Shown here: in pieces, positions 11,732 to 63,390 of the stretch
How positions within the stretch are numbered: the stretch's first letter is position 1
Layout: each line of letters starts with the position of its first letter
Source: Nanobdellota archaeon
GTDB lineage: Archaea > Nanobdellota > Nanobdellia > Woesearchaeales > GCA-2686295
Direction: 5' to 3'
Length of the DNA: 64,000 bases
NCBI GenBank assembly: GCA_018817005.1
Contig: JAHIUF010000018.1
Span: forward strand, 4,964 to 68,963
Notes under the pieces: generated by a model
What the model was told of the DNA's origin: nothing
Database searches by the model: none
Seen by the model: only the letters and a program-made list of their open reading frames with translations
Translations under genes and position numbers: made by a program

Positions 11732-11794
11732 TTATAATCTCCACATGATTTTTTGCTCGTTTTAAATTGAATTCTAATAATACTAATATTATAA

Positions 11795-26680: not shown

Positions 26681-27010
26681 ATGTTTTCAAGAAAAAAAGT
26701 TTATGGAGAATACAAAAAAGATATTTGTCCTTTTTGTGAAAAGCAAGCAACAAGCATTAATCAACAGGGTGTTCCTGTATGTCAACAGCACAAAACAGAA
26801 GAGCTTCCTCTTATGAAGTGTGTTTGTGGAGAAACTCTTGATTTAAAAACAGGCAAATTCGGTGCATATTTTCACTGCATGAACTGTGGAAACATTAGCT
26901 TTCACAAAGCAATGGATATAAATCCAAAAATAAACTTTGAAAGAAAAAAAGAAGCAACCCAAAAAAAAGAAATAACTGTCACTTCTGACGAAGCAGATTT
27001 CATATTTTAG
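26681..27010 (+). CDS. Zinc-ribbon protein with topoisomerase-type C4 zinc fingers
   Basis: CPFCEK...VCQQH and CVCGETLDLKTGKFGAYFHCMNCGN match the zf-C4_Topoisom pattern. Confidence 0.5.
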   Translation: MFSRKKVYGEYKKDICPFCEKQATSINQQGVPVCQQHKTEELPLMKCVCGETLDLKTGKFGAYFHCMNCGNISFHKAMDINPKINFERKKEATQKKEITVTSDEADFIF

Positions 27011-28959
27011 GATTTTGAAACATCAATTCTTTCTTTTAATTTTTTAACTCTATCTCGAAGTGCAATTGCTCTTTCGAATTCAAGTTTGTTTGCGGCTTTT
27101 TGCATTTCGAACTCTAATTCTATAATCAAATTCGGAACATCTTTTTTTGGAATGTGTTTTGCATCTGTTAGTTCAATTTCTTTTTCTTTAATAGGCTTTA
27201 TTATTGTTTTTGGTGTAATCTTATTTTTCTTATTATATTTCAACTGCAAATTTCTTCTTCTATTGGTTTCTAAAACTGCTTTTTTTATTGAATCAGTAAT
27301 TTTATCAGCGTATAAAACAACCTTTGAATTTATGTTTCTTGCAGCTCTGCCGATGATTTGTATAAGGCTTCTTGCGTCACGCAAAAATCCTTCTTTATCT
27401 GCGTCAAGTACTCCTATAAATCCTACTTCAGGAATGTCTAACCCTTCTCTTAAAAGATTAATCCCGACTAAGACGTCAAATTTTCCAAGCCTTAATTGTC
27501 TTATAATTTCTGTTCTTTCAAGTGTATCAATTTCAGAATGAAGATATCGAGTTTTTATTCCTGCTTCTGCAAAATATTCTGTTAATTCTTCAGCAAGTTT
27601 TTTTGTAAGTGTTGTTACAAGAACCCGGTCACCTCTGCTGATTGTTAATCGGATCTCTTCTTTTAAATCATTAATTTGTCCTTTAATTGGTTTTATCAAA
27701 ACCACTGGATCAACAAGACCTGTAGGTCTGATTATTTGTTCTACGATCTGTGATGAATGTGTTTCTTCATAAGGCCCTGGAGTTGCCGAAACAAACAACA
27801 CATTATTTTTTTTCATGAATTTTTCAAACTCTGAAAAGTCTAATGGTCGGTTATCAAATGCACTTGGAAGTCTGAAACCATAATCTATTAAATTTTTTTT
27901 TCTCGAATAATCACCCTTATACATTCCTCTTACTTGTGGTAATGTTTGGTGACTTTCATCAATAACAATCATAAAATCTTCTGGAAAATAATCAAGCAAA
28001 CAAAAAGGCCTCTCACCTTTTTTTCTTCCTTCAAAATACCTAGAATAATTTTCTATGCCTTTACAAAAACCTGTTTCTTCAATCATTTCCAAATCATAAA
28101 GAGTTCTTTGTTTTAATCGATGAGCCTCTAAAGGTTCTAATTCCAAAAGTCGCTCTTTAAGATCATCTTTTATTAAGTCTATTGAAGAACTTATTGTTTC
28201 CGGCGATATAACAAATTGTCTTGCGGGATAAACATGAAAATATTTCATATCTTCTAAAACATTACCAGATGTTTTTTCAATTTCAAGAATTTTTTCTACA
28301 ATATCACCAAATAATTCTATTCTTATGATGTTATCAAAATATCCTGGTATAAAATCAATTGTATCACCTTTAACCCTGAATCTTCCGGGCATAAGTTCTA
28401 AATCGTTTCTTTCAAACTGTAAATCAACAAGTTTTCTTATCAAGTCATTTCTTGAAAACTTTTTTTTAGAAACTATTTCAAATCCCATTTGTACAAAATT
28501 TTTTGGATCGCCAACACTGTAAATACAAGAAACTGAAGCTACAACTATCACATCTTTTCTTGATATAAGTGAGGCTGTTGCCGCAAGCCTCATCTGTTCG
28601 ATTTTTGGATTTACCTGGGCATCTTTTTCTATGTACTGATCTTTTTGTGGTATATATGATTCTGGCTGGTAATAATCATAGTATGAGACAAAATATTCAA
28701 CTCTATTTTTGGGAAAGAAATCTTTAAATTCGTTATAGAGTTGAGCAGCTAAAGTCTTGTTGTGTGCTAAAACAAGAGTTGGTTTTTGTATTTGAGATAT
28801 GATGTTTGCAACTGTAAATGTTTTTCCAGAACCCGTAACTCCCAGAAGCGTTTGGTAATTTAGTTTGTTCTTTAATCCTTTCATGAGTTTTTTTATTGCT
28901 TCTGGCTGTGAGCCTTTAGGCTTAAAGCTTGATTTGAGTTTAAATTCATTTAATGCCAT
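27007..28959 (-). CDS. uvrB: Excinuclease ABC subunit B
   Basis: 650 aa, LLGVTGSGKTFTVANII Walker A, helicase motifs, C-terminal UVR domain. Confidence 0.9.
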   Translation of the reverse strand: MALNEFKLKSSFKPKGSQPEAIKKLMKGLKNKLNYQTLLGVTGSGKTFTVANIISQIQKPTLVLAHNKTLAAQLYNEFKDFFPKNRVEYFVSYYDYYQPESYIPQKDQYIEKDAQVNPKIEQMRLAATASLISRKDVIVVASVSCIYSVGDPKNFVQMGFEIVSKKKFSRNDLIRKLVDLQFERNDLELMPGRFRVKGDTIDFIPGYFDNIIRIELFGDIVEKILEIEKTSGNVLEDMKYFHVYPARQFVISPETISSSIDLIKDDLKERLLELEPLEAHRLKQRTLYDLEMIEETGFCKGIENYSRYFEGRKKGERPFCLLDYFPEDFMIVIDESHQTLPQVRGMYKGDYSRKKNLIDYGFRLPSAFDNRPLDFSEFEKFMKKNNVLFVSATPGPYEETHSSQIVEQIIRPTGLVDPVVLIKPIKGQINDLKEEIRLTISRGDRVLVTTLTKKLAEELTEYFAEAGIKTRYLHSEIDTLERTEIIRQLRLGKFDVLVGINLLREGLDIPEVGFIGVLDADKEGFLRDARSLIQIIGRAARNINSKVVLYADKITDSIKKAVLETNRRRNLQLKYNKKNKITPKTIIKPIKEKEIELTDAKHIPKKDVPNLIIELEFEMQKAANKLEFERAIALRDRVKKLKERIDVSKS

Positions 28960-29042
28960 TTTCTTTTGATAAAATTATAACAAACTTATAACAAAAACTT
29001 TTATTTTAATTTAAAAAGGTTACTGCCTCGTGTCTAGTGTGA

Positions 29043-30608
29043 TTATTTCTGCAAAGTTTCTTTTCTTCTTAAAAGCCGGTTATAACTTATTGCAAACCTA
29101 TGAGCTTCGTCTCTAATTTCTCGCAAAAATAAAAGACCTTTATTTTTCTTTTCGAGCTTTATTGAAAATTTAAGACCTGGAACAAATATTTCTTCTTCTT
29201 TTTTAGCAATTGAAATAATTGGGATTTTCAAATTCAAATTTTTTAATTCTTCAAGAGCAAAACTCAGTTGTCCTTTTCCTCCGTCAACAACTATTAAGTT
29301 TGGAAGTGGTTTCTTCTCATCCAATAGTCTTTTATATCTTCTCATTACAACTTCTGATATTGCTTTAAAATCATCAATACCTTCAACAGTTCTTATTTTG
29401 TATCTGCGATAATTTTCTTTGTTAGGTTTGCCGTTTTGAAATTGAATCATTGATGCAACAGTTGAAGTTCCTGATATATGTGAAACATCAAAGCACTCTA
29501 TTACGAATGGTGTTTCTTGCAAGCGAAGTTTTGTTTTTAAAACACTTAATTTTTCTACTTCACCAAAAAATAATGCTTCAATATTTTTTAGAACTAGTTC
29601 AAGAAGCTTTTTTTTATCGCCCTTTTTTGGAACAACAACTAAAACTTTTTCTTTTCGTTGAAATTCTAGAAAAGATTTAAGCGAATTACTAATGTTCTTT
29701 GGTAAGATTATTTCTTTTGGAACCTTATTTTCAGAATAATATTGAGAAATAAATTGTTCAAAAAAATCGTTTTGTTCTTCAAATTCAAATTCCTGTTTAT
29801 TTTCAAGAAGACCTTTGTAAACATTAAAAAGCAAGAGATAAACTTTTCCTTGTGCTCGTTTATAATTTATTATATCTTGATTGTATTTTTTTTGCAGTTC
29901 CATGGTTTGTTTTTCTTTAAGCCAGATTAGTGATTGTATTTGATTTCTTAATTCGATTGCTAATTCAAAATCTTGTTTCTTAGAATAAAGTTCCATATTC
30001 TTTTGAAGTATTTTTAAAAGATCGTTTATTTTCCCTTTAAGAACCATTTTTGTAGCAGATATTTTTTTAGCGTATTCCTTTTTTGAAATATTTTTTATAC
30101 ATGGTGCTTCACAAAGTTTTATATGATATCGTAAACAGGATTTTTTAGAGATTTTTTTGCAGGTTCGAAGCTTAAAAGTTTTTATGAGTGTATGCATAAG
30201 ATAATCTCTTGTTCCTGCAGATGTGAATGGTCCGAAAAATTCTCCTGTACCAATTTTTTTTCTTACAATAAGAATTCTTGAAAAATCTTCTTTCGTAATG
30301 TGAATGTAAGCATATCTTTTTGAGTCTTTAAGTTGAATATTATATTTTGGCTGATACTTTTTTATCAGATTATTTTCCAGAATGAGTGCTTCCACTTCAT
30401 TATTTGTTATAAAAAATTCTATGAATTCAATCTTTGAAACAAGAGATTTTGTTTTTGAATCTAAAGACTTTTTTTGAAAATAACTACTAACTCTTTTTTT
30501 TAGATTATTTGCTTTACCAACATAGATTACTTTTTCTTTTTTGTTTTTGAAAAGATAACAACCGGGTTTGATAGGAATTTTGTTTGGGACATCTTTAAGT
30601 TTTATCAT
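29043..30608 (-). CDS. uvrC: Excinuclease ABC subunit C
   Basis: N-terminal GIY-YIG (PGCYLFKNKKEKVIYVGKANNLKKRVSSYF), 521 aa; overlaps the uvrA stop by 4 nt. Confidence 0.85.
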   Translation of the reverse strand: MIKLKDVPNKIPIKPGCYLFKNKKEKVIYVGKANNLKKRVSSYFQKKSLDSKTKSLVSKIEFIEFFITNNEVEALILENNLIKKYQPKYNIQLKDSKRYAYIHITKEDFSRILIVRKKIGTGEFFGPFTSAGTRDYLMHTLIKTFKLRTCKKISKKSCLRYHIKLCEAPCIKNISKKEYAKKISATKMVLKGKINDLLKILQKNMELYSKKQDFELAIELRNQIQSLIWLKEKQTMELQKKYNQDIINYKRAQGKVYLLLFNVYKGLLENKQEFEFEEQNDFFEQFISQYYSENKVPKEIILPKNISNSLKSFLEFQRKEKVLVVVPKKGDKKKLLELVLKNIEALFFGEVEKLSVLKTKLRLQETPFVIECFDVSHISGTSTVASMIQFQNGKPNKENYRRYKIRTVEGIDDFKAISEVVMRRYKRLLDEKKPLPNLIVVDGGKGQLSFALEELKNLNLKIPIISIAKKEEEIFVPGLKFSIKLEKKNKGLLFLREIRDEAHRFAISYNRLLRRKETLQK

Positions 30609-33406
30609 TTTAATATATTTCTTAAAAAAACTGCGGTGTGACTATTCTTGTTTATTGACACCTCTTCAGGTGTTCCTTTTGCAACAATAAAACCTCCATC
30701 ATCACCGCCATCTGGACCTAAATCTATTATGTAATCCGCAGATTTTATAACATCAAGATTATGTTCAATTACAATCATTGTGTTCCCCTTTGAAACTAGT
30801 TCATCTAAAACCAAGATTAGTTTTTTTACATCATGAAAATGAAGACCTGTTGTTGGTTCATCTAATAAATAAACTGTTTTTCCAGTTCCTTTTTTTGAAA
30901 GTTCTCTTGTAAGTTTAATTCTTTGTGCCTCTCCACCAGAAAGGGTTGTAGAGCTTTGACCAAGTTTGATATATCCTAGACCTACTTTTTTTAATGTTTC
31001 AAGTTTTGATTTTAATAGCGGTCTATTCTGAAAAAGTTCGTAAGCTTCATCTACAGTCATATTCAAAATATCTGCTATTGATTTACCTTTAAATCTCACT
31101 TCTAAAGTTTCACGATTGTATCTTTTGCCCCCACAATCTTCACATTCAACATATACATTTGGAAGAAAATTCATTTCTATCTTTATGACTCCATCACCTT
31201 GACAAATTTCGCATCTTCCACCTTTTACATTAAAAGAGAATCTTCCCGGTTTATAACCCCTTATTTTTGATTCTTTTAATTCTGAAAATAGTTTTCTTAT
31301 TTCATCAAAGATTTTTGTGTATGTTGCAGGGTTGCTTCTTGGAGTTTTACCTATGGGACTTTGATCTATTACTACTACTTTATCAATTTCTGATCCTAAT
31401 ATGATTTTATCATGTTCACCAACTCTTTTTTTTGAGTCATAAAGCTTTTTCATAAGGCCTTTATAGAGAATTTCATAAATCAAAGTTGATTTGCCGCTTC
31501 CTGAAACACCTGTTATGAGCGTTAAAATTCCTATTGGAATACTAACATCAATGTTTTTTAAGTTGTTCTGTCTACAACCTTTGATTTCAATAAAACTCTG
31601 AGCCTTTCTTCTAATGTTCGGAATGGAAATTTTCATTTTTTTGGAAAGATATTTTCCTGTCAGGGATTTTTCGTTTTTTGCAATTTCTTCAGGTGTGCCT
31701 TTGGCAATAATCCTTCCCCCTAAAAGACCTGCACCAGGACCCATATCTACAACGTAATCTGCTTTTCTTATTGTGTCTTCATCGTGTTCTACAACAATAA
31801 GAGTATTTCCAATATCTCGTAAGCGATGAAGTGTATCTATTAGTTTTTGATTATCTTTTTGATGAAGACCAATTGATGGTTCGTCAAGAATGTATATTAC
31901 ACCCATTAGATTGGAACCTATCTGTGTTGCAAGTCTAATTCTTTGGGCTTCTCCGCCAGAAAGCGTTCCTGAGTTTCTTGAGAGTGTTAAGTATGAAAGT
32001 CCTACTTCTGATAAAAATTTAAGTCGAGAATTTATTTCTTTTAAGATGTGTTTTGCAATCTCTTGTTCTTTTTCAGATAATTTTAAATCTTTAAAAAAAT
32101 CTAAAGTATCTTTTATGGAAAGGTCGGTTATATCAATTATTGATTTATCGTTTATTTTTACTGCTAAAACTTTTTCTTTAAGCCTTTTTCCCTTACAAGC
32201 AGGACAGGTAGATACTCTCATAAATTTTTCAAGTTCTCTTCTTCTATAATCTGATTCAGTTTGATGAAAAAGTCTTTCAGATTGAGGTACGAGACCTTCC
32301 CAACTACTGGTATGAGTCCAGTTAGCTTCACCTTGCTTCATCTTCATATTAAATTTTATTCGATCCTCAGATCCATACATCAAAATATTGTATTGTTCTT
32401 TTGATAAGTCTTTGATTGCTGTAAAAACTCCAAACCCATAATGTTTAGCAACTGAACCGATATATTGTCCTCGCCAACCATCAATTGCGTTTCTGTAAAG
32501 CATTATTGCACCATCTGCAATTGACTTATTCTTATCTGGTATTATCAAGTCAGGGTCAAAATCCATTTTTATACCAAGACCATGACATTCTTCACAAGCA
32601 CCAAACGGACTATTAAAAGAAAACATTCTTGGTTGCAATTCTTCAAATGCTAAGCCACATTTTGGACAAGCCATTTTTGAAGAGTATAATTGTTCTTTAT
32701 TTGATTCGTCAAGAACAATCAATAATCCTTTTGATTTTAACAGAGCATTTTCACAAGCCTCTACGAGTCTTTGAGTGTCTGTTATGTTAAGTCTATCTAT
32801 AACTATTTCAATATCATGTTTTTTGTATCTTTCAAGAAGTATTTTTTCATCAGTTCTTACAATTTGTTTATTTACTCTTGCTCTTGCATATCCTTCTTTG
32901 TTTAAATCCATTAACAGTTTTTCATATGTTCCTTTTTTTTGTCTGATTATTGGTGAAAGAACTATTATGTTACCGGAGAGTTCTTCTGCAATTTTCTGTG
33001 CAATTCTTTCTGAAGATTGAGCTTCTATTTTTATTCCGTGTTCCGGACAGTAAGGAATACCTATTCTTGCGAAAAGAAGCCTCAGATAATCATATATTTC
33101 AGTTATTGTTCCAACAGTACTTCGAGGATTCTTACTCGTAGTTTTTTGTTCGATTGATATTGCTGGCGATAAGCCTTCAATACTATCAACATCTGGTTTG
33201 TTCATTAACCCCAAAAATTGTCTTGCATAAGCTGAAAGTGATTCAACATATCTTCTTTGCCCTTCAGCATATAATGTGTCAAAAGCAAGGGTTGATTTTC
33301 CACTGCCTGAAAGACCAGTTATTACTATAAACTTATCCCTTGGAAGTGTTACATTAATGTTTTTTAGGTTGTGCTCACGAGCACCTTTAATTATTATGTC
33401 TTTCAT
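30605..33406 (-). CDS. uvrA: Excinuclease ABC subunit A
   Basis: 933 aa, two ABC modules ([20 protein letters not shown]), zinc fingers, LSGGEAQRI signatures. Confidence 0.9.
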
Positions 33407-41320: not shown

Positions 41321-42379
41321 TTGTTAAAAAAGGTGTTGGTTTTGAAAAAAGAAAAACAATCAACTATAAAGTTACTGCTAAAGCTACTGCTATTGTTAAC
41401 AATTTTAGTGGAAATAATGGTGTTTGTATCACAAGCAACTGCTCAAATCTTAATAACAGAGGTTTTGTACAACCCGATAAATACTGAATCCGGAGGTGAA
41501 GTAATTGAACTTTATAATCCCACAAATAAAACAATAAACATCTCTAATTGGAAAATTTCATCTGAATCATCTGATAAAGACGCAGTCATGGCTCCCAACA
41601 CATCCATAGCGCCAGAAGAGTACTTTTTGATAGCAGACACTGGTTTTAGCCTAAAAAAGGATAACTCTTCCTGGCCGGATGCAAATTATGAAGAAACAAT
41701 AACCCTCTCAAACACGAACGCCGGTATTGCACTAATAGATATTAATAATAAAACTATAGACGCTGTTGGCTGGGGTGAAACGTCAGAAATAAATACGGGA
41801 CTTTATGAAGGCACACCTGTAGAACATGTTCTTGAAGGATTAAGTCTACAAAGAAAATTCAACACGACTTTTCAAGATACAAACAATAACATCAATGATT
41901 TCATATCAAAAAAACCTTCATTAAAACAAGCAACTATTCTAGAAAAAACTATCATCATAAATACAACAATAAACAATACAACAACAAACAATGAAACAAT
42001 AAAAAATGAATCTCAAAAAACAAATTTTTCAAACACATTAATAATTAAGAAAACCCTATTCATAAACATCAACAACAAAAACACAACGATTACGAGTTTT
42101 GAAATAAAAAACAATTCAACACGAAACATAACACTTAAAATAAAAAGCACAAATTTCACAACAGAAAACAAGAGCTTTGATTTAAATTGGATAAATTACT
42201 CAATAAATAATTTTGAAACAGAACAAAAACTAACGAGAACATTTCAAGAAACAAAGATAATAAAATCCAACGAAAAGATTAACTTATCACTAAAAATCAA
42301 GTGGTGCAACCAAACAAACAGAGAATACAAAGGAAGAATAATCTTTGAATCTACATCCAGCAGTATCAACAGCATATAA
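41321..42379 (+). CDS. Secreted lamin-tail-domain (LTD) protein with Asn/Thr-rich sequon-dense C-terminal region
   Basis: Signal/TM at N-terminus; ILITEVLYNPINTESGGEVIELYNPTNKTINISNWKI matches the LTD signature; numerous N-x-S/T sequons. Confidence 0.55.
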   Translation: MLKKVLVLKKEKQSTIKLLLKLLLLLTILVEIMVFVSQATAQILITEVLYNPINTESGGEVIELYNPTNKTINISNWKISSESSDKDAVMAPNTSIAPEEYFLIADTGFSLKKDNSSWPDANYEETITLSNTNAGIALIDINNKTIDAVGWGETSEINTGLYEGTPVEHVLEGLSLQRKFNTTFQDTNNNINDFISKKPSLKQATILEKTIIINTTINNTTTNNETIKNESQKTNFSNTLIIKKTLFININNKNTTITSFEIKNNSTRNITLKIKSTNFTTENKSFDLNWINYSINNFETEQKLTRTFQETKIIKSNEKINLSLKIKWCNQTNREYKGRIIFESTSSSINSI

Positions 42380-56603: not shown

Positions 56604-57185
56604 ATGAAAAGGCTATCATCGGGAGCAGAAGCTATAATTTTCTTAGATAAAGATAAAATTATAAAAAAAAGAGTTGAAAAAAAATACCGTCATGAAAGAA
56701 TTGATTCTCAGCTTAGAAAAGCCAGAACTAGAAGGGAAGCGAAGGTTTTAGAAAAAATCCCTGTTTCATCACCAAAACTAATTGAAAGTGATGGGCAAGA
56801 AATAATCGTGATGAATTACCTAAAAGGACCAAAAGTTAGAGATGTTCTAGATAAAAAACCCTTGCTTGCTAAAGAAATCGGTGAAAAGCTTGCAAGAATA
56901 CATGACTCAGGCATTATCCATGGAGACTTAACAACCTCTAACATGATTTTAAAAGATAAAGACATTCATTTCATAGATTTTGGACTGTCCTTTTTTTCAG
57001 CAAAAGAAGAAGACAAAGCAGTAGATATCCATCTTTTTAAACAAGCCCTTGAAAGCAAACACTACAAGGTATTCGAAAAAGCATATGAATACTTTATACA
57101 AGGTTATAAAAAATCAAAAAAATTTAAACAAACCATGGAACGATTAAAAAATGTTGAAAAAAGAGGTCGCTACAAGAAAAAATGA
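56604..57185 (+). CDS. bud32: KEOPS complex kinase Bud32 (Kae1-associated RIO-type kinase)
   Basis: GAEAIIF...KKRVEKKYRHERIDSQLRKARTRREAKVL...IIHGDLTTSNMIL...IDFGLS...EDKAVDIHL. Confidence 0.8.
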   Translation: MKRLSSGAEAIIFLDKDKIIKKRVEKKYRHERIDSQLRKARTRREAKVLEKIPVSSPKLIESDGQEIIVMNYLKGPKVRDVLDKKPLLAKEIGEKLARIHDSGIIHGDLTTSNMILKDKDIHFIDFGLSFFSAKEEDKAVDIHLFKQALESKHYKVFEKAYEYFIQGYKKSKKFKQTMERLKNVEKRGRYKKK

Positions 57186-58885
57186 GTTTTGAAAAATTTT
57201 TAAAAATATTTTTTTTACTAACACTAATATTTACACCTTTACAAGTTTCAGCAGCCAATGGACACATAAAGCTTCTTAGCGTTAGTTCTAATTCAGAAAA
57301 AGAAACAGGCGGAACTGCTGACCTTTTTTTAGAAGTAAAATCCGGCAGTGGAAGAATTTTCATAGACTCATTTCCATTAACAAAATTAGACACACAAATT
57401 TCTACTCGTTTTTCAAATCAAGTGGCTTGTGAATTTTTGAATGAAGACTGCTCCAAATATGATTTTTTTTACACAATAAGAGCTAATTCAGCAATAGTTG
57501 GCGGACCAAGTGCAGGTTCAGCAATAACAATTCTAACAATTGCGGTTCTTGATGATTTAAAGCTAGATGAAAAAACAGTTATTACCGGAACTATAAACTC
57601 TGGAGAAGTAATAGGGGTTGTTGGTGGTATAAATGAAAAAATCATAACTGCTGCAAGACAAGGCTTTGAAAAAGTTCTTATACCAAAATGGCAGTTGAGC
57701 TTCAACGAGAGTCTAATAAAAAAAGAGTTAGGAAACAAAAGCATAACTGTTGTAAAGATTTCAAACATAAGAGATGCTCTGTTTCATTTCACAGGGAAAA
57801 ATTATGATTCCAGAACAGGCAGTATAATACTATCTGAAAAGTATCTAAATAGGATGAAATCTGTCTCTGAAAAATTGTGTGAAAGAACAGTATTAATGCA
57901 ACAAAACATACCTGCAGATTTCAATAAATATGATGCTTTTTATAAAAATGCAACTTCTTTTTATAAAAGAGCATTAGAGTCAGAGAAAGTTATGGATTAT
58001 TATTCTAAAGCGAGTCTCTGCTTTTCAGCCAATATTAAACTTCAAAACGTATTGCTTTCAAATAAAACTGTTGAAGAAAAAAAACACCTTGCCAATCAAA
58101 ATATTGACTTTATTCGAGAATTAAATTTTGAAATTGAAAAAAAAGAGTTGTTAACACTTTCAGATCTTGAAACTTTTATGATTGTTAAAGAAAGACTTGT
58201 TGAAGCAGAGGATTTTTTGAGAAATAGTAATTTGAATAATCTGTCTGCTTATACTCTTGGATATTCTATTGAACGTGCATATAGTGCATATTTTTGGTCA
58301 GATTTTTTTGGTTTAAAGGGTGAAATTTTATCTCTTGATGATGAACATTTAAAAAATGGTTGTCTTAAAAAAATATCTGAAGCAGAAGAAAGAATAAATT
58401 ATATTGATTTGTACCTTCCGGGGATTTCTTCTTCTGCTCAAAAAGAATTAAATTATGCTTATAATGATTATTATAATGAAGATTTTGAGCTTTGTATATT
58501 CAAAGCAAGTAAGGCTAAGGCTGAAGCAAATATTATGATGACTGCGATGGGAATTACTCTTGAACAGTTAGATTCTATGATTGAAGAAAAACTTTCTGCC
58601 ATTGAACAAATTATTCTTAAAGAGTTTGATAAAGATTTTTTCCCAATAATTGGTTATAGTTACTATGAATATTCTAAGACCTTAAAAGAAGAAGATCCTG
58701 GATTAAGCCTTATGTTTTCTGAATATGCATTAGAGCTTAGCAATCTTGATGTATACTTTCCCTCTGAGAAAAAAAACATTTTTGGTTCAAATTTTTTTTG
58801 GCTTTTTTGCTATGAGATATTGATTGGTTTTCTTTTAACAATTATAATCATTCTTATTAGTCTTCTTTTCAAGAAACAAAAGTAA
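57182..58885 (+). CDS. Membrane/secreted S16 (Lon proteolytic domain) serine peptidase
   Basis: Signal peptide; VGGPSAGSAITILTIAVLDD...TGTINSGEVIGVVGGINEKIITAARQG matches the Lon S16 domain; C-terminal TM anchor. Confidence 0.65.
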   Translation: MSFEKFLKIFFLLTLIFTPLQVSAANGHIKLLSVSSNSEKETGGTADLFLEVKSGSGRIFIDSFPLTKLDTQISTRFSNQVACEFLNEDCSKYDFFYTIRANSAIVGGPSAGSAITILTIAVLDDLKLDEKTVITGTINSGEVIGVVGGINEKIITAARQGFEKVLIPKWQLSFNESLIKKELGNKSITVVKISNIRDALFHFTGKNYDSRTGSIILSEKYLNRMKSVSEKLCERTVLMQQNIPADFNKYDAFYKNATSFYKRALESEKVMDYYSKASLCFSANIKLQNVLLSNKTVEEKKHLANQNIDFIRELNFEIEKKELLTLSDLETFMIVKERLVEAEDFLRNSNLNNLSAYTLGYSIERAYSAYFWSDFFGLKGEILSLDDEHLKNGCLKKISEAEERINYIDLYLPGISSSAQKELNYAYNDYYNEDFELCIFKASKAKAEANIMMTAMGITLEQLDSMIEEKLSAIEQIILKEFDKDFFPIIGYSYYEYSKTLKEEDPGLSLMFSEYALELSNLDVYFPSEKKNIFGSNFFWLFCYEILIGFLLTIIIILISLLFKKQK

Positions 58886-59112: not shown

Positions 59113-60066
59113 TTAACCCCTAAAAACAAACTCGAATTCCTCAAGAAACCACCCTGCAACAACAGAATTGTGAATCACTAAGATATTCTCATCATTTCTA
59201 AAAAAACCATTATTTGAAGGGTTTGTCGAACCAGTTATAACTGTGTGATTATCAATAATGAAAACCTTGTGATGCATATTAAAAGGATTTGAATCAAAAA
59301 TGATATTTGAATTTGTTAGTGAAATTTTTTGATATTCAGAAAACTGGCTTTGCTGAGTTTTTTCAAACACACCCTTAATATCCAAATCATTTTTTTCAAG
59401 CAACAAATCACCAATTTTATCCGAGGTAAAAGAAAAGGTCATAAAATAAACTGATGAATTAGCAGAATCAATAATGTTCAAAAATACATCTTCACACGAA
59501 TCATCAGGACAAAAATAGTTCTCCAAAAGAAAATCATTAAAAAGTATTTTTGTGTGTTTGGTTTTTTTTGAAAAGTCACCTTTTTTTAATTCAAAAAATT
59601 CGGAAAGATAATTTTGTGCAAGAACTTTTGATTCTACAATTACTAAATTGTTGTTATTCTTATAAGCACCACGAAAAGTCGGATTAAGAGAACCTAATAT
59701 AACAATAGACTCATCCAGAATACAAAATTTGTTATGCATAAGAGATTGACTAGAAATAGATTGTCCAAACCCATTAAAGTTTTCTTCAAATATTAACACA
59801 TCCGCATTTTTTTCTTTTAAAACAGAAATTATTCTTTCCAAACCCAAATCATAAAAAGCACACTTAATATCTGAAGCAGAATAAAAAAAATCCAGAAGAA
59901 CCTGCTCGCAATCATCACGTGGACAAAAAAAAACTTTTAAAAAACCATTATCAGAAGGAAGTTGTATAAAACTTTTTGTTCGAATAAAAAATAAACAAAG
60001 ACCTAAAATAATTATTAAAAATAAACATGCAGAAATAATTAAAGATGACGAAACATGTTTTTTCAT
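59113..60066 (-). CDS. Phospholipase D-family protein (two HKD motifs), N-terminal TM anchor
   Basis: HNKFCILDESIVILGSLNPT and HHKVFIIDNHTVITGSTNPS (HxKx4D). Confidence 0.7.
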   Translation of the reverse strand: MKKHVSSSLIISACLFLIIILGLCLFFIRTKSFIQLPSDNGFLKVFFCPRDDCEQVLLDFFYSASDIKCAFYDLGLERIISVLKEKNADVLIFEENFNGFGQSISSQSLMHNKFCILDESIVILGSLNPTFRGAYKNNNNLVIVESKVLAQNYLSEFFELKKGDFSKKTKHTKILFNDFLLENYFCPDDSCEDVFLNIIDSANSSVYFMTFSFTSDKIGDLLLEKNDLDIKGVFEKTQQSQFSEYQKISLTNSNIIFDSNPFNMHHKVFIIDNHTVITGSTNPSNNGFFRNDENILVIHNSVVAGWFLEEFEFVFRG

Positions 60067-60122: not shown

Positions 60123-61091
60123 TCACGATTCTAATAGGTTTTCTTCCCATATCTGATTCTTTCCTGCAAGTTTTGCCTTGTAAAGAGCATCATCAGCTGC
60201 TTTCACAATCTGATTTATAGATATATTAAAATCACCCTTAGAAGGCGGATTATATGTTGCAACACCACCACTTACAGTAACTGATTTAATAAAATCTTTT
60301 TTAGGGCTGTAAGGTGCAGAACTAATTCTTTCTCGCAATCTATCAGCAAGGTTGTAAGCTGCATCAAAAGTTGTTTCAGGCAGTAAAAGAACCATTTCTT
60401 CTCCGCCAAATCTTACAGCAAGATCTGTTAAACGAGTGCTTTCCATCAAATTTCTCGCAATCTTTTTCAGAACGTAATCCCCTTCCAAATGACCAAAAGT
60501 GTCATTGTATTTTTTAAAATTATCAACATCAAAAAAAACTAAAGATAAAGGTTTTCTTGACCTAACCAACCTCTTTATTTCTAAAAGACTATGCGACTGA
60601 AATGCACCCATATTATAAAGACCGGTTTTAGGGTCTCTTTCAGAAAGAACTGCATTTTCCTGATTTCTTAACTCCTTTTGAACCTTTAACATCAACATAG
60701 AAAGATTAAGAGGCTTTGAAAGGTAATCACAAGCGCCAATTTTCATTGCTTCAACAGCAGTTTCGAGGTTTGGATTACCAGTCATAACAATTGACATGGT
60801 ATCTTTGCTTTCCTCTTTTATTTTTTTAAGCAATTCTAAACCACTCATGCCTGAAAGATTAATATCAATTAATGCAAGGTCATGATAAACAGACTTTATG
60901 TGTTCTAATCCCTCTTCTCCAGAATAAGCCTCTGAAACACTAAAATAAGGTATTTGACAAAGAGCATACTTGATTAAAGAAGTTATTTTTTTATCATCGT
61001 CAACAATTAAGATATTTTTATCTTTAGGAGTTCCTGATGCAGGGTTTTGTGAGTCAAGCAAATTAGTTAACTCATCGGTTGTGTTGAACAT
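60123..61091 (-). CDS. Response regulator with receiver domain fused to GGDEF diguanylate cyclase domain
   Basis: REC (ILIVDDD...DLALIDINLSGMSGLEL), GGDEF domain (FFDVDNFKKYND, RFGGEEMVLLLPET). Confidence 0.75.
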   Translation of the reverse strand: MFNTTDELTNLLDSQNPASGTPKDKNILIVDDDKKITSLIKYALCQIPYFSVSEAYSGEEGLEHIKSVYHDLALIDINLSGMSGLELLKKIKEESKDTMSIVMTGNPNLETAVEAMKIGACDYLSKPLNLSMLMLKVQKELRNQENAVLSERDPKTGLYNMGAFQSHSLLEIKRLVRSRKPLSLVFFDVDNFKKYNDTFGHLEGDYVLKKIARNLMESTRLTDLAVRFGGEEMVLLLPETTFDAAYNLADRLRERISSAPYSPKKDFIKSVTVSGGVATYNPPSKGDFNISINQIVKAADDALYKAKLAGKNQIWEENLLES

Positions 61092-61202
61092 TTTAAATAA
61101 GAAAATCAGAACATATTTTTAAAACTTTAGTTAAATAACCACTGAAAAGTAGTTTTTTAAAAAATAGAAATAATTAAAAGAACAAAGAGATTCAAAAAAA
61201 AT

Positions 61203-62141
61203 ATGAAACATAATTTAAACGTTACAATAATACTTATCGCGATTTTTATAATAACACAAATAGTAGGGCTTACACTTATAAACTTAGACATAAAAAGTGT
61301 TCAAAACGTAAACGGAACAATAACTATAAACCATCAAGAAACAGCAATAGGTCCAAGGCCGCAAACAGAAGGTGCAGGGTCGTTCATATACTTATCTGGA
61401 GCAGTATTTATAGGAACAATACTAGTATTGATTCTTATAAGATATAAGAAAAGAAATCTCTGGAAAACCTGGTTTTTCCTGGCAGTTGTACTATCAATAA
61501 CAATTGCCCTTGGAACCTTTCTTTCAAAAACACTCGCACTAATCCTTGCAATAATCTTTGCAATTATGAAACTCTACAAACCAAACATATTAACCCATAA
61601 CTTAAGTGAAGTACTCATATACTCGGGGATTGCAGTTTTAATAGTTCCAATACTAGATATTTTTTGGGTAACAATGCTCTTGATAATAATATCTTTCTAC
61701 GACATGTTCGCAGTGTGGAAAAGCAAACACATGATAAAAATGGCTGAATTTCAAACAAAAAGCAATGTCTTTGCAGGAATTATGATACCATACGAACAAA
61801 AAGAACAACACGTAACAATAAAAACACCCATAAAAGCTGCGCCTATGATTGAAAAAAGTCAAACCACCAAAAAGAACAAAGAAATAAGACTAAAAAATGC
61901 AATACTCGGAGGTGGAGACGTTGCTTTTCCACTAATATTTTCAGGAGTTGCAATGGAAAACTTCATACTGAAAGGCTTAAGTCCAATAATCGCTTTTCAA
62001 CAAAGCTTAGTGATAGTTTTATTCACAACAATTGCTGTTTTTGGATTGTTCACATTTGCTAAGAAAAACAAATTTTACCCAGCAATGCCATTTATAACAA
62101 TAGGCTGTTTAGTAGGGTATGCTATAACTCTATTAATATAA
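61203..62141 (+). CDS. Presenilin/signal-peptide-peptidase homolog (A22-family intramembrane aspartyl protease)
   Basis: About 9 TM segments; YD (IISFYDMFAV), GxGD-like (ILGGGDVAFP), PAL-like (YPAMPFI) motifs in the correct order. Confidence 0.5.
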   Translation: MKHNLNVTIILIAIFIITQIVGLTLINLDIKSVQNVNGTITINHQETAIGPRPQTEGAGSFIYLSGAVFIGTILVLILIRYKKRNLWKTWFFLAVVLSITIALGTFLSKTLALILAIIFAIMKLYKPNILTHNLSEVLIYSGIAVLIVPILDIFWVTMLLIIISFYDMFAVWKSKHMIKMAEFQTKSNVFAGIMIPYEQKEQHVTIKTPIKAAPMIEKSQTTKKNKEIRLKNAILGGGDVAFPLIFSGVAMENFILKGLSPIIAFQQSLVIVLFTTIAVFGLFTFAKKNKFYPAMPFITIGCLVGYAITLLI

Positions 62142-62187: not shown

Positions 62188-62997
62188 TTAAAAATTGTTG
62201 AGTTTTTTTTGCTTTAAAGAAGATGCATATGAAACTGGATTAACAATCAAACCATCTTTTGCAGCGATAACCTGACATTTTGTTTTTTTCTGAATTTCTC
62301 TAGCCTCATAAATCGTGTCTGCATCAAGCATTTTTAAACCGAAATGAGTGAGAATTGCAAGTTTTGGATTTATTTTATTCAAAAACTTAACAACATCTTC
62401 AGAATTCATATGTCCTTCTTGAGAAAGCCCAATAGGATGTTTACAATTAATAATAATGACATCCACGTCCTTATGGCCATCGACGAGTTCTTTACAATAC
62501 TCTGTATCGCCAGTGTATGAAACAACAAAATTCTCACTATAAAACTTAAAACCAAGAGATGACTCTGTGTGTTTTGCAAAGACAGGCATTATATTCACTT
62601 CATTTATACCTATTCTCATACCTGGTTTTACCGCAATAAAACGTTCAAGCATTGCTTTGCTATGTTTTTTTAAGCCAGGATAATCATTTTCAGAACCATG
62701 AAGTGTTTCTTCATCACAGACCAACACTCCGTGTTTGTCCATACCAGAATAAGTCATGGCAGAAATTATTGCATTCAAATCATTAACATGATTTATGTGA
62801 TTGTGTGAAACAAAAATCGCAGTGTTTTCTCGAAGGTTAATGCCATAATCTTTGGCCTTTATAATTGCACCTGGACCTGGATCAAGATGGAACTGGTTAT
62901 CATTAAATTTTAAAATTATTCCACCAGAAGACCTTATCTGTTTACCAACGACTTGAGAGTCACCTCCCGTACCCAAGAATAAAATAGCGTTTTTCAT
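62188..62997 (-). CDS. MBL-fold metallo-hydrolase
   Basis: HxHxDH-type motif VSHNHINHVND; start set at MKNAILFLGTGG with GGGGGTG upstream. Confidence 0.6.
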   Translation of the reverse strand: MKNAILFLGTGGDSQVVGKQIRSSGGIILKFNDNQFHLDPGPGAIIKAKDYGINLRENTAIFVSHNHINHVNDLNAIISAMTYSGMDKHGVLVCDEETLHGSENDYPGLKKHSKAMLERFIAVKPGMRIGINEVNIMPVFAKHTESSLGFKFYSENFVVSYTGDTEYCKELVDGHKDVDVIIINCKHPIGLSQEGHMNSEDVVKFLNKINPKLAILTHFGLKMLDADTIYEAREIQKKTKCQVIAAKDGLIVNPVSYASSLKQKKLNNF

Positions 62998-63125
62998 GCG
63001 CACCCCCAAAACAAATATATTTCAGAGAAGTTAATAAAAGTTTCGTTTTAAACCATTAAAAACCGAGACTTAAAGAGATATACAAGAGATAGATTTAAAA
63101 AGCAAAAAACTTTCTTCCAGATTGC

Positions 63126-63390
63126 TAGACTGGGTGGCTCGTCCTCACCTGTAACTGCAAACGGATGTACGGCAGGGTTGAAGCCTGAGGGGCGGCGTAA
63201 TTTTAGTTATAGGTCTTGGTTGGACCGTCGACGTCTTGTCCTTTAGGATCAGGATTTTTATGAACTGAGTCAGATCAGGAATGAAGCAGCTCTAAGTATT
63301 AATCGTGGTGTCTAAGGGGTTGCAGGATTGAGGAAAAATCAAGGTAGCCTTTGATTGGAGTTTTCGTCCACCTTCAGGCGTGCACTTTTA
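63126..63390 (+). ncRNA. Signal recognition particle RNA (7S/SRP RNA) candidate
   Basis: GC-rich island in AT-rich genome; helix-8-like GAGUCAGAUCA-GGAA-UGAAGCAGCUC (compare E. coli 4.5S GUCAGGUCCGGAAGGAAGCAGCC); 5'/3' regions complementary; TATA-like GATTTAAAAA about 30 nt upstream, T-run after. Confidence 0.55.

What the first reader, a model, noticed from the sequence alone, without database searches (positions are those of the whole stretch)
60123..61091. REC-GGDEF diguanylate cyclase in an otherwise archaeal gene set, beside a TM-anchored PLD-family protein
c-di-GMP signalling is essentially bacterial. The surrounding genes (PolB, ABCE1, Bud32, Rpp21, intron-containing tRNA) are archaeal. 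A PleD-like response regulator with a GGEEM variant of GGDEF suggests horizontal acquisition and possibly functional c-di-GMP signalling in an archaeon. The adjacent PLD-family protein (59113-60066) could be an effector, but this is speculative.
Basis: partly seen in the sequence, partly recalled or inferred. Interest (0 to 1): 0.6.

Follow-up and report, generated by a model that had tools for sequence, protein, structure and literature searches.

The report
Genuine diguanylate cyclase in DPANN archaeon
A gene for an enzyme that should make the "bacterial" messenger c-di-GMP sits in a small symbiotic-type (DPANN/Woesearchaeota) archaeal genome, is not an assembly artefact, and probably belongs to a small archaeal family of such enzymes, which makes c-di-GMP signalling in archaea testable.

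Summary
Window 60123-61091 (-) encodes a 322-aa receiver (REC) plus GGDEF protein. All phospho-acceptor, metal, guanine and I-site (RxxD) residues are intact; the only deviation is GGEEM for GGEEF.

The contig is archaeal and not chimeric. Archaeal presenilin, archaeal SRP RNA, Bud32, Rpp21 and an archaeal ribosomal-protein/RNA-polymerase operon flank the gene. At least 7 contigs from several assemblies carry it, with the same neighbours wherever they were shown. GC and codon usage match the neighbours.

It is not PleD-like. It has a single REC, and its closest solved relative is DgcR.

Its nearest homologues are only 36-42% identical. However, a 100%-bootstrap clade of Woesearchaeota REC-GGDEF proteins exists on unambiguous archaeal contigs. 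The window protein shares that clade's off-series 26-residue linker and C-terminal tail, but tree support for joining it is weak (29-49%).

The adjacent PLD protein is a Nuc-type, membrane-anchored protein family common in DPANN archaea. It occurs without GGDEF elsewhere, so the effector idea is unsupported.

No kinase, phosphodiesterase, PilZ or riboswitch lies on the 77.6-kb contig.

Verdict: a probably active archaeal diguanylate cyclase with unknown downstream targets. It is a new member of a known kind, of moderate interest.

The parts
60123..61091 (-). Gene for a 322-aa REC-GGDEF response-regulator diguanylate cyclase. It is identical to NCBI MBU0665846.1, MBU1030089.1 and MFH1606304.1, annotated 'diguanylate cyclase [Nanoarchaeota archaeon]'.
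   Evidence: ORF. Pfam and NCBIfam domain hits. Exact cluster look-up. AF2 model with mean pLDDT 91.5. Foldseek top hits are WspR, DgcR and PleD.
60681..61013 (-). REC receiver domain (residues 27-137). Acidic pocket D31/D32, phospho-acceptor D76 (nt 60864-60866), T104 and K126.
   Evidence: PF00072 E=1e-25. Residue check on a 192-sequence alignment.
60636..60713 (-). Linker from the KP motif to the DPKT turn: 26 residues between K126 and D153, mostly one continuous predicted helix (130-150). This is 4 residues shorter than DgcR and falls off the 30/37/44/52 heptad series of the bacterial relatives.
   Evidence: Linker-length counts. DgcR alignment with a 4-residue gap. AF2 secondary structure. 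Heptad rule from PMC8041772.
60153..60638 (-). GGDEF catalytic domain (residues 152-313). Residues present: D188, D190, K193, N196, D205, R227, E231, E232 and K307.
   Evidence: PF00990 E=2.3e-38. Alignment to PleD and DgcR. Conservation table.
60393..60407 (-). Active-site hairpin motif GGEEM (residues 229-233). It has Met where 191 of 192 aligned relatives have Phe.
   Evidence: The same Met is present in the 99%-identical variant MBU1849949.1.
60423..60434 (-). Inhibitory I-site RxxD (R220-L-T-D223), five residues upstream of GGEEM. This is the position of RAID in PleD.
   Evidence: PleD alignment. Conservation R 191/192 and D 189/192.
61092..61202 (.). A 111-bp divergent intergenic region between the REC-GGDEF gene (-) and the presenilin gene (+). 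An A/T-rich TATA-like element (TTTAAAAAT) lies about 30 nt upstream of the REC-GGDEF ATG. This fits an archaeal promoter with a short or absent leader, but is weak evidence in a 30% GC genome.
   Evidence: Read directly from the sequence. The bacterial sigma-70 scan found no more sites than in shuffled sequence.
59113..60066 (-). Downstream neighbour: a membrane-anchored protein with two HKD (PLD-superfamily) domains of the Nuc/NucT/Zucchini nuclease type. It belongs to a protein family common in Woesearchaeota. It is context only, not a demonstrated partner.
   Evidence: Pfam and NCBIfam. Best PDB hit is Nuc endonuclease 1BYR, E=1.3e-11. There are 3084 homologues; the best 120 are 44-60% identical and every organism name attached to them is Woesearchaeota, Nanoarchaeota, Nanobdellota or 'archaeon'. 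The fully readable relative has no GGDEF beside it.
61203..62141 (+). Archaeal presenilin-family intramembrane protease (PSH). It serves as a flanking archaeal marker 111 bp from the REC-GGDEF start.
   Evidence: PF06550 E=4.9e-13. NF041679 IMP_arch_presen E=2.9e-17.
63118..63389 (+). Archaeal SRP RNA. It serves as a flanking archaeal marker 2 kb from the gene.
   Evidence: Rfam RF01857, 119.5 bits against a gathering score of 96.5, E=1.4e-26.

Best explanation
The gene encodes a bona fide archaeal response-regulator diguanylate cyclase. The host is a low-GC DPANN archaeon (NCBI 'Nanoarchaeota archaeon', Woesearchaeota-like).

Proposed mechanism:
- Shown from sequence: the receiver domain keeps the full phospho-acceptor residue set, and the GGDEF domain keeps every residue needed to bind Mg2+ and GTP.
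- Inferred: phosphorylation of D76, by a histidine kinase encoded elsewhere or by a small phosphodonor, rearranges a constitutive dimer through the alpha5 linker helix. This lets two GTP-loaded GGDEF domains meet and make 3',5'-c-di-GMP.
- Inferred from motif conservation: product binding at the retained RxxD I-site limits output.
- Substrate specificity is predicted to be GTP-only. The Watson-Crick-face residue is Asp (D205) combined with GGEE-, which is the canonical rather than the Hypr combination.

Origin: the gene is an old resident of the genome. It most likely belongs to a Woesearchaeota-specific REC-GGDEF family that descends from one ancient, ultimately bacterial, acquisition. It is that family's most divergent known member.

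What c-di-GMP controls in these cells is unknown. No degrading enzyme or receptor is visible within reach.
For: Domain and residue evidence:
- Pfam and NCBIfam hits are far above cut-offs.
- Residue-by-residue alignment to PleD and DgcR shows D188/D190, K193, N196, D205, R220xxD223, R227, GGEE and K307.
- REC residues D31, D32, D76, T104 and K126 are present.
- The AF2 model has pLDDT 91.5 and pTM 0.75.
- Foldseek matches DgcR in its native state (6zxb_A) at E=5.4e-28, TM 0.64/0.69 over 297 columns, followed by WspR and PleD.
- The rule 'Asp at the 348-equivalent position plus GGEEF gives a diguanylate cyclase' comes from PMC6456294.

Authenticity of the contig:
- At least 7 contigs carry the exact protein, from NCBI MAGs, ENA and two Logan runs, with the same neighbours in every contig that was displayed.
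- GC is flat at about 0.30 across 64 kb.
- Gene GC is 0.341 (z=+1.3), GC3 is 0.238 (z=+0.6) and the codon-usage likelihood has z=-0.8 against 42 window genes.
- Archaeal PSH lies 111 bp away and archaeal SRP RNA 2 kb away.
- The 77.6-kb contig continues into LeuRS and an RpoN-S9-L13-L18e-RpoD-S11-S4-S13 operon.

Archaeal family:
- Ten further REC-GGDEF proteins (P0060, P0076, P0089, P0244-P0247, P0249-P0251; 39-90% identical to one another) form a clade with 100/100 NJ bootstrap.
- Their contigs are archaeal. In three species the gene sits between the S13 end of the archaeal ribosomal-protein/RNA-polymerase operon and a Ski2-like helicase. P0249 occurs on contigs of up to 636-677 kb named Woesearchaeota.

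Links between the window protein and that clade:
- It is the clade's sister in the best NJ tree.
- The KP-to-D linker is 26 residues in 11/11 archaeal proteins against 3/181 bacterial ones.
- The C-terminal 'x5-N-x-L' tail occurs in 11/11 against 1/181.
- A clade HMM built without the window protein ranks it first of 182 non-members (235.8 bits, against 228.5 and 216 for the next two).
- REC-GGDEF diverges about 1.4 times faster than the linked ribosomal-protein operon at short distance (90.5% against a mean of 93.0% identity, L087 versus L089). It shows the same uncorrected ratio at long distance (36.7% against a mean of 55.6%, window contig versus L087).
Against: - No enzymatic evidence exists. 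The fifth motif residue is Met, not Phe: 1 of 192 in my sample, and no report of GGEEM was found in the searched literature.
- No histidine kinase, EAL, HD-GYP, PilZ or c-di-GMP riboswitch was found in the 64-kb window or on the rest of the 77.6-kb contig.
- c-di-GMP has never been detected in any archaeon (PMC10249747).
- Membership of the Woesearchaeal clade is only weakly supported by trees. Bootstrap is 29/100 for the full length and 49/100 for GGDEF alone, and the grouping is absent from the REC-only tree.
- Raw identity to the best bacterial-type hits (up to 42% on alignment A1; 36-40% by BLASTP) is slightly higher than to the archaeal clade (33-37%).
- The window protein lacks the clade's roughly 20-residue insertion before the last helix.
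- The tail motif was defined after looking at the data.
- The 26-residue linker is off the heptad series. The DgcR register-shift mechanism may therefore not apply as such (PMC8041772 'group 0').
Confidence: 0.72

Rival explanations
1. Assembly or binning artefact: a bacterial GGDEF gene wrongly joined to archaeal DNA.
For: Galperin et al. 2018 raised this concern for bacterial-type response regulators on archaeal contigs (PMC5847659). The nearest named homologues are bacterial.
Against: The same gene with the same flanks was assembled independently in at least 7 contigs from different samples and assemblers. Archaeal-specific genes lie within 111 bp on one side, and a DPANN-wide PLD family gene lies 56 bp away on the other. 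Archaeal SRP RNA lies 2 kb away. GC, GC3 and codon usage are indistinguishable from the neighbours. No homologue above 42% identity exists that could have served as a source.
Confidence: 0.02
2. Independent acquisition: the window gene was taken from bacteria separately from the Woesearchaeal REC-GGDEF clade. On this view the shared short linker and tail are convergent or reflect a similar bacterial donor.
For: Bootstrap for the joint clade is only 29-49%, and the REC-only tree does not recover it. Identity to bacterial-type hits (up to 42%) is at least as high as to archaeal ones (33-37%). Three bacterial-type sequences also have a 26-residue linker (P0265, P0273, P0305). The window protein lacks the clade's insertion and its Cys/Pro-rich tail residues. 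The genomic position differs from all clade members.
Against: Three discrete characters are shared 11/11 against at most 3/181. The clade HMM ranks the window protein first. Divergence fits the relative rate seen against the linked ribosomal-protein operon. Both hosts are Woesearchaeota-type DPANN archaea.
Confidence: 0.25
3. Catalytically dead GGDEF. On this view the GGEEM variant no longer makes c-di-GMP, and the protein acts as a c-di-GMP receptor through its I-site, or simply as a phospho-sink or protein-interaction response regulator. Most archaeal response regulators work by protein-protein interaction.
For: Met at the fifth motif position is unique among 192 relatives. No literature on this variant was found in the searched library. 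Galperin et al. describe REC plus inactivated GGDEF in Micrarchaeum. No partners for a c-di-GMP circuit were found nearby.
Against: Every residue with a known catalytic, metal-binding or substrate-binding role is intact, and only a buried hydrophobic residue changed conservatively from Phe to Met. Known receptor-type GGDEF domains usually lose the GGEE acidic residues. The ten clade relatives carry canonical motifs: GGEEF in nine and GGDEF in P0251. A receptor would still need a source of c-di-GMP.
Confidence: 0.12
4. One reading: REC-GGDEF and the downstream PLD protein form a signal-effector operon.
For: The two genes run in the same direction and are only 56 bp apart. In one other lineage the gene downstream of REC-GGDEF is also a phosphodiesterase of lipid head groups, GDPD (L095).
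Against: The PLD family is common in Woesearchaeota. The relative that could be read on both sides keeps the Rpr2-Bud32-Lon_C...PLD order without any GGDEF. Three other archaeal REC-GGDEF lineages have no PLD neighbour. The PLD protein has an N-terminal membrane anchor, paired Cys residues in each half, and homologues fused to LTD domains. These features point to an extracellular nuclease-type enzyme (best PDB hit Nuc) that cytoplasmic c-di-GMP could not reach. The intergenic region carries T-runs and its own TATA-like element.
Confidence: 0.05

Closest known systems
DgcR of Leptospira biflexa (PDB 6ZXB, 6ZXC, 6ZXM), the 'small prototypic Rec-GGDEF diguanylate cyclase' (PMC8041772)
   Same: Both have a single REC, an alpha5 helical linker and a GGDEF domain, at about 300 residues. 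The alignment is near full-length (query 21-314 against chain residues 21-316, E=5.8e-38). NCBIfam DgcR scores E=9e-46 over 2-293/295. DgcR gives the best full-length fold superposition (TM 0.64/0.69). Both have an RxxD I-site, a GGEE- motif and an Asp phospho-acceptor.
   Different: Identity is only about 33-34%. The score is far below the DgcR equivalog cut-off (156 against 500 bits). The linker is 4 residues shorter (26 against 30), which breaks the heptad series on which the register-shift model rests. The turn motif is DPKT instead of DxLT, and the active-site motif is GGEEM instead of GGEEF. The host is an archaeon.
WspR (Pseudomonas) and PleD (Caulobacter)
   Same: All are response-regulator diguanylate cyclases with I-site feedback. 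The catalytic residues align one-to-one. Foldseek gives E of 1e-24 to 1e-28.
   Different: WspR has a much longer coiled-coil stalk. PleD has two receiver domains (REC-REC'-GGDEF), so the label 'PleD-like' is wrong for the architecture. The score against the NCBIfam PleD equivalog is 198 bits against a cut-off of 474.
Woesearchaeota REC-GGDEF clade found here (P0076, P0060, P0089, P0244-P0247, P0249-P0251; NCBI 'diguanylate cyclase [Candidatus Woesearchaeota archaeon]')
   Same: All come from DPANN archaeal hosts. All share the 26-residue linker, an N-terminal extension before REC, the C-terminal x5-N-x-L tail, and an intact active site and I-site. The window protein is the clade's sister in the NJ tree and the top-ranked non-member for the clade HMM.
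   Different: Identity is 33-37%. The window protein lacks the clade's roughly 20-residue insertion before the last helix and the Cys-Tyr-Pro tail residues. It has DPKT where the clade mostly has DSMT, and GGEEM where the clade has GGEEF or GGDEF. Its genomic position differs. Bootstrap for the grouping is weak.
Previously noted archaeal GGDEF proteins (Methanocella arvoryzae CAJ37382; REC plus inactivated GGDEF in Ca. Micrarchaeum; more than 300 BLAST hits in Asgard and DPANN MAGs)
   Same: These are GGDEF domains in archaeal assemblies whose authenticity the literature left open (PMC5847659, PMC8646023, PMC10086821).
   Different: In the present case the catalytic residues are intact, unlike the Micrarchaeum proteins as Galperin et al. 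describe them. Contamination is also excluded here by multiple assemblies and by archaeal flanks.

Membership tests
GGDEF diguanylate cyclase domain (PF00990 / TIGR00254) | Significant match to the family profile over the whole domain | tested here: met
   PF00990 E=2.3e-38, 131.9 bits against a cut-off of 23.8, profile positions 3-161 of 161. TIGR00254 E=2.6e-45.
GGDEF diguanylate cyclase domain (PF00990 / TIGR00254) | GG[D/E]EF signature in the beta2-beta3 hairpin | tested here: inconclusive
   The motif is G229-G230-E231-E232-M233. The four catalytically relevant residues are present, but the fifth is Met where 191 of 192 relatives have Phe. No data on GGEEM activity were found.
GGDEF diguanylate cyclase domain (PF00990 / TIGR00254) | Metal-binding Asp (PleD D327), guanine-binding Asn and Asp (PleD N335, D344), and phosphate-binding Lys and Arg | tested here: met
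   D188, N196, D205, K193, R227 and K307 align to the PleD and DgcR residues.
GGDEF diguanylate cyclase domain (PF00990 / TIGR00254) | Nucleotidyl-cyclase-type fold | tested here: met
   AF2 gives pLDDT 91.5. Isolated GGDEF domains superpose with TMt 0.84-0.91 and rmsd of about 2 Angstrom.
GGDEF diguanylate cyclase domain (PF00990 / TIGR00254) | Synthesis of c-di-GMP from 2 GTP | not testable with these tools
   This needs an enzyme assay or an in-vivo reporter.
I-site-regulated diguanylate cyclases | RxxD motif five residues upstream of GG[D/E]EF | tested here: met
   R220-L-T-D223 followed by LAVRF-GGEEM aligns with PleD RAID-LPCRY-GGEEF.
Two-component receiver (REC, PF00072) | Acidic pocket, phospho-acceptor Asp, conserved Thr/Ser and Lys | tested here: met
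   D31, D32, D76, T104 and K126 are present. PF00072 E=1e-25.
Two-component receiver (REC, PF00072) | Cognate histidine kinase in the genome | tested here: inconclusive
   No HisKA or HATPase_c kinase lies in the 64-kb window or on the rest of the 77.6-kb contig. The rest of the genome could not be read. Some Woesearchaeota and Pacearchaeota MAGs do encode kinases (supplement of PMC5847659).
PleD family (NF007135) | REC-REC'-GGDEF architecture and the equivalog score | tested here: not met
   There is a single REC. The score is 197.9 bits against a cut-off of 474.
DgcR-type (group 1) Rec-GGDEF with register-shift linker | KP-to-DxLT linker length on the heptad series, and a DxLT turn | tested here: not met
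   The linker is 26 residues against 30 in DgcR, and bacterial relatives fall at 30/37/44/52. The turn is DPKT. The NCBIfam DgcR score is 156 bits against a cut-off of 500. The protein works like this class but is not a member.
Hypr GGDEF (cGAMP synthases such as GacA) | Ser/Thr at the Watson-Crick-face position (GacA S348) together with GGDEF | tested here: not met
   The position is Asp (D205) and the motif is GGEE-, which is the diguanylate-specific combination according to PMC6456294.
Woesearchaeota REC-GGDEF clade (defined here) | 26-residue linker, C-terminal x5-N-x-L tail, N-terminal extension | tested here: met
   The linker is shared by 11/11 against 3/181, and the tail by 11/11 against 1/181. 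The N-terminal extension measures 26 residues in the window protein against 24-48 in the clade.
Woesearchaeota REC-GGDEF clade (defined here) | Well-supported monophyly with the clade | tested here: inconclusive
   The window protein is the sister group in the best NJ tree, but bootstrap is 29/100 (full length) and 49/100 (GGDEF), and the grouping is absent from the REC tree. The clade HMM ranks it first by a small margin. It lacks the clade's roughly 20-residue insertion.
Complete c-di-GMP signalling module | A phosphodiesterase (EAL or HD-GYP) and a receptor (PilZ, MshEN, degenerate GGDEF/EAL, or GEMM riboswitch) | tested here: inconclusive
   None was found on the 77.6-kb contig. The HD protein at 583-1263 lacks the GYP motifs. 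Rfam found no c-di-GMP riboswitch.

The most novel reading that the evidence does not exclude
A lineage of DPANN (Woesearchaeota-type) archaea runs a working c-di-GMP pathway. REC-GGDEF cyclases have been inherited vertically for a long time. Output would go through receptors and degrading enzymes that are not the canonical bacterial ones, since no PilZ, EAL or HD-GYP was seen near any of the five archaeal loci. The pathway might control attachment to a host or to surfaces. An even bolder variant is that the nucleotide is made to act on bacterial neighbours.
Probability: 0.4. Interest if true: 0.78.

Novelty: new member of a known kind. Interest (0 to 1): 0.52.

Why it matters
Reviews up to 2023 state that c-di-GMP has not been detected in any archaeon and that diguanylate cyclases are almost exclusively bacterial (PMC10249747). 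Earlier surveys left open whether GGDEF genes on archaeal contigs are real or are contamination (PMC5847659, PMC10086821).

This locus settles authenticity for one case. It also exposes a conserved Woesearchaeota REC-GGDEF family whose active sites are intact across 39-90% sequence divergence. That pattern is the signature of a maintained function.

The result turns the question "is there c-di-GMP signalling in archaea?" into a testable one. There are now concrete genes to express, a defined M233 variant to test, and near-complete Woesearchaeota contigs to mine for non-canonical receptors.

The enzyme type itself is ordinary, and NCBI already annotates the protein as a diguanylate cyclase.

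Tried and rejected
- Metagenome-contig scan with the 11-sequence archaeal alignment.
- Exact look-ups of two window proteins with uncertain starts (8505-10730 and 11795-13291) found nothing on record. The left third of the window was annotated with Pfam instead.
- HD protein at 583-1263 as a possible HD-GYP phosphodiesterase. Rejected: it is a generic HD domain, and no GYP motif is visible in the translation.
- The 121-aa ORF beside the S13 gene on the contig extension, as a possible remnant of a REC-GGDEF at the position used by clade A. Rejected: no similarity by tblastn.
- Stand-alone MshEN-domain protein two genes from the REC-GGDEF of P0249 (L093), as a c-di-GMP receptor. PF05157 matches residues 96-184. 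The N-terminal part does not show the RLGxxLLxxG...Q binding motif as I recall it from Wang et al. 2016. That motif comparison was done by eye and from memory, so this stays a weak lead only. No homologue of this protein is present in the window.
- Defence-system reading. PADLOC gave no hit for the REC-GGDEF, MBL, presenilin or Lon_C proteins, and only generic DrmC/DpdK PLD similarity for the neighbour.
- Bacterial promoter and terminator scan. It found no more promoter-like sites than in shuffled sequence and is not applicable to archaea.
- Conserved-neighbour search across five archaeal REC-GGDEF lineages. Nothing is shared other than the ribosomal-protein operon lying nearby in two of them.
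- Literature search for GGEEM or GGDEM variants found nothing relevant.
Full report
**1. The observation**

The ORF listing gives a 322-aa ATG-initiated ORF at 60123-61091 on the minus strand. Pfam finds Response_reg at residues 27-137 (E=1e-25) and GGDEF at 152-313 (E=2.3e-38, profile positions 3-161 of 161). NCBIfam adds TIGR00254 (E=2.6e-45) and sub-threshold similarity to PleD and DgcR. The motif RFGGEEMVLL is present at nt 60393-60407. The downstream ORF 59113-60066 (-) has one N-terminal hydrophobic helix and two PLDc_2 domains with intact HxK...D motifs.

**2. Is the contig archaeal and continuous?**

- *Flanking genes.* The gene diverges from an archaeal presenilin (PSH) gene 111 bp away. 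It lies 2 kb from an archaeal SRP RNA (Rfam 119.5 bits against a gathering score of 96.5). To the left are a Lon_C membrane protein, Bud32, Rpr2/Rpp21, PGK, GAPDH, MCM and family-B DNA polymerase.
- *Contig extension.* The public 77.6-kb contig runs beyond the window. It continues into LeuRS and the archaeal RpoN-S9-L13-L18e-RpoD-S11-S4-S13 operon, which contains a 116-nt tRNA hit, and it ends in an IS element.
- *Composition.* GC is flat at about 0.30 across 64 kb. The gene's GC (0.341), GC3 (0.238) and synonymous-codon likelihood lie within about 1.3 SD of 42 window genes.
- *Independent assemblies.* The exact protein occurs on at least 7 contigs from NCBI MAGs, an ENA assembly and two Logan runs, with the same neighbours in every contig displayed. 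A 321/322-identical variant also carries GGEEM.
- *Conclusion.* A chimera is excluded for practical purposes.

**3. Residues and fold**

- *Catalytic residues.* Alignment to PleD and DgcR and to 191 relatives shows the metal-binding Asp (D188), K193, guanine-binding N196 and D205, R227, G229-G230-E231-E232, K307 and the I-site R220-x-x-D223.
- *Receiver residues.* The REC domain has D31, D32, phospho-acceptor D76, T104 and K126.
- *The one deviation.* M233 stands where 191 of 192 sequences have Phe. This residue opens strand beta3 in the model. I found no data on this variant.
- *Substrate specificity.* Asp at the Watson-Crick-face position together with GGEE- is the diguanylate-specific combination, not the Hypr (cGAMP) one (PMC6456294).
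- *Fold.* AlphaFold2 with a 104-sequence alignment gives pLDDT 91.5 and an uninterrupted alpha5 helix over residues 130-150. The best Foldseek hits are full-length WspR, DgcR (6zxb_A, TM 0.64/0.69) and PleD. Isolated GGDEF domains superpose at TMt of about 0.9.

**4. Relatives and origin**

Among 5.8 billion proteins, the nearest sequences outside the gene's own 90% cluster are 36-40% identical by BLASTP (up to 42% on alignment A1). Where they are named, they are bacterial: Desulfobacterota, Geobacter, Omnitrophota and others.

*An archaeal clade.* In an NJ tree the protein grouped with three 350-aa proteins. These sit on unmistakably archaeal contigs, between the S13 end of the archaeal ribosomal-protein/RNA-polymerase operon (with RpoN, L18e and Spt5 nearby) and a Ski2-like helicase, in three species. 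A profile search then recovered more members. Two are named Woesearchaeota by NCBI. One of these, P0249, occurs on contigs of up to 636-677 kb. After these members the score drops sharply, from 332 to 249 bits. The ten proteins are 39-90% identical to each other. All keep the catalytic and I-site residues, and they form a clade with 100/100 bootstrap.

*Does the window protein belong to it?* The evidence is mixed.

Tree support is weak:
- Bootstrap is 29/100 for the full length and 49/100 for GGDEF only.
- The REC-only tree does not recover the grouping.

Other evidence favours membership:
- The KP-to-D linker is exactly 26 residues in 11/11 archaeal proteins against 3/181 bacterial ones, whose lengths fall at 30/37/44/52.
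- A C-terminal x5-N-x-L tail occurs in 11/11 against 1/181. This motif was defined post hoc.
- The N-terminal extension is comparable in length.
- A clade HMM built without the window protein ranks it first of 182 non-members, at 235.8 bits against 228.5 and 216.
- REC-GGDEF diverges about 1.4 times faster than the linked operon proteins. This holds at short range (90.5% against 93.0% identity) and, uncorrected, at long range (36.7% against 55.6%).

Some evidence counts against membership:
- The window protein lacks a roughly 20-residue insertion typical of the clade.
- It sits at a different genomic position.

I rate common descent within Woesearchaeota as more likely than not, at roughly 0.6-0.7. 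An independent transfer is the main rival.

**5. Mechanism**

The architecture and residue set predict a phosphorylation-activated, product-inhibited diguanylate cyclase of the DgcR/WspR type (PMC8041772). One caveat applies. The linker is 4 residues shorter than DgcR's and off the heptad series. The turn reads DPKT rather than DxLT. This resembles the off-series 'group 0', for which Teixeira et al. suspected a different linkage. The coiled-coil register-shift step is therefore inferred by analogy and may differ.

No kinase, EAL, HD-GYP, PilZ or riboswitch was found in the window or on the contig extension. Five archaeal lineages share no conserved neighbour that could be an effector.

**6. 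The PLD neighbour**

- The protein has 3084 homologues. The top 120 are 44-60% identical, and every organism name attached to them is Woesearchaeota, Nanoarchaeota, Nanobdellota or 'archaeon'.
- Its best solved relatives are the Nuc endonuclease (1BYR, E=1.3e-11) and MitoPLD/Zucchini.
- A relative keeps the Rpr2-Bud32-Lon_C...PLD order without any GGDEF. A second relative's contig begins inside its PLD gene and shows no GGDEF downstream.
- The membrane anchor, the paired cysteines and the homologues fused to LTD domains suggest an extracellular nuclease-type enzyme.
- It is a native DPANN gene that happens to lie next to the cyclase. The effector idea is unsupported.

**7. Comparison with the literature, and verdict**

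- Galperin et al. 2018 knew one archaeal GGDEF (Methanocella). They questioned whether bacterial-type response regulators on archaeal contigs are real.
- Braun et al. 2021 mention more than 300 BLAST hits in Asgard and DPANN MAGs.
- Roemling 2022 says their presence needs confirmation.
- The 2023 review states that c-di-GMP has not been detected in archaea.

The protein is already annotated as a diguanylate cyclase in NCBI, so the enzyme is a new member of a known kind. What this analysis adds is proof of authenticity, the intact residue set, and a conserved Woesearchaeal family with an unusual linker class. Interest is moderate at 0.52. It would rise considerably if c-di-GMP synthesis and a receptor were demonstrated.

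Noticed in passing
L093 8761-9330 (-), two genes upstream of the Woesearchaeota REC-GGDEF P0249 (same arrangement in L094): A stand-alone 189-aa protein matches the Pfam MshEN domain (PF05157, E=2.6e-19) at residues 96-184. MshEN is a known c-di-GMP-binding module in bacteria. Here, however, the N-terminal part does not show the RLGxxLLxxG...Q binding motif (judged by eye). It is a possible receptor lead.
   Followed up: partly
window 62188-63009 (-): An MBL-fold hydrolase lies two genes from the cyclase and next to the SRP RNA. It has precomputed Pfam hits to Anti-Pycsar Apyc1 (PF23023) and an NCBIfam hit to 'cyclic nucleotide-degrading phosphodiesterase' (E=2.9e-11), as well as partial RNase Z similarity. 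Its best PDB relative is the uncharacterised BA1088 (1ZKP). It could be a nucleotide phosphodiesterase. Conservation in relatives was not checked.
   Followed up: partly
L097 13185-17308 (contig beyond the window) compared with L087, L088 and L089: The window's contig carries the same RpoN...S13 operon that directly abuts REC-GGDEF in clade A. Here the cyclase lies about 5.5 kb from the RpoN end instead of next to S13. The S13 side has a 121-aa orphan ORF and an IS (rve) element at the contig end. This could be an ancestral linkage broken by rearrangement, or it could be coincidence.
   Followed up: partly
L095 11119-11877 (+): In the P0244 lineage the gene immediately downstream of REC-GGDEF is a glycerophosphodiester phosphodiesterase (GDPD, E=2.3e-44), followed by an FGGY sugar kinase. 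In the window the downstream gene is a PLD-superfamily protein. So a phosphodiesterase-type gene follows the cyclase in two lineages. This may be chance.
   Followed up: no
window 27007-33406 (-): A complete bacterial-type UvrB-UvrC-UvrA nucleotide-excision-repair cluster sits in this archaeal contig, so the cyclase is not the only gene of bacterial type here.
   Followed up: no
window 8505-13291 (-): A heavy-metal module is present. It comprises a P-type ATPase with an HMA domain (8505-10730) and an unusual HMA-DsbD_2 fusion protein (11795-13291). Upstream lies a second, cation-type P-type ATPase (1561-4248).
   Followed up: no
window 56604-58885 (+); L090 and L091: The Bud32 kinase gene overlaps by 4 nt the start of a 567-aa membrane protein that carries only a Lon_C proteolytic domain. 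The Rpr2-Bud32-Lon_C order is conserved in a relative whose PLD protein is 55% identical. This suggests a conserved DPANN gene pair of unknown significance.
   Followed up: partly
L097 14674-14789 (-): A 116-nt Rfam tRNA hit (33 bits) lies inside the ribosomal-protein operon. It is presumably an intron-containing archaeal tRNA.
   Followed up: no
window 59113-60066 (-) and homologues P0181, P0211, P0212, P0232, P0238: Each half of the PLD/Nuc-like protein carries a CxxxxC pair (CPRDDC and CPDDSC). Several homologues are fused to a lamin-tail (LTD) domain, and the window itself has a separate LTD protein at 41321-42379. This fits a secreted or surface nuclease family typical of DPANN archaea.
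   Followed up: partly
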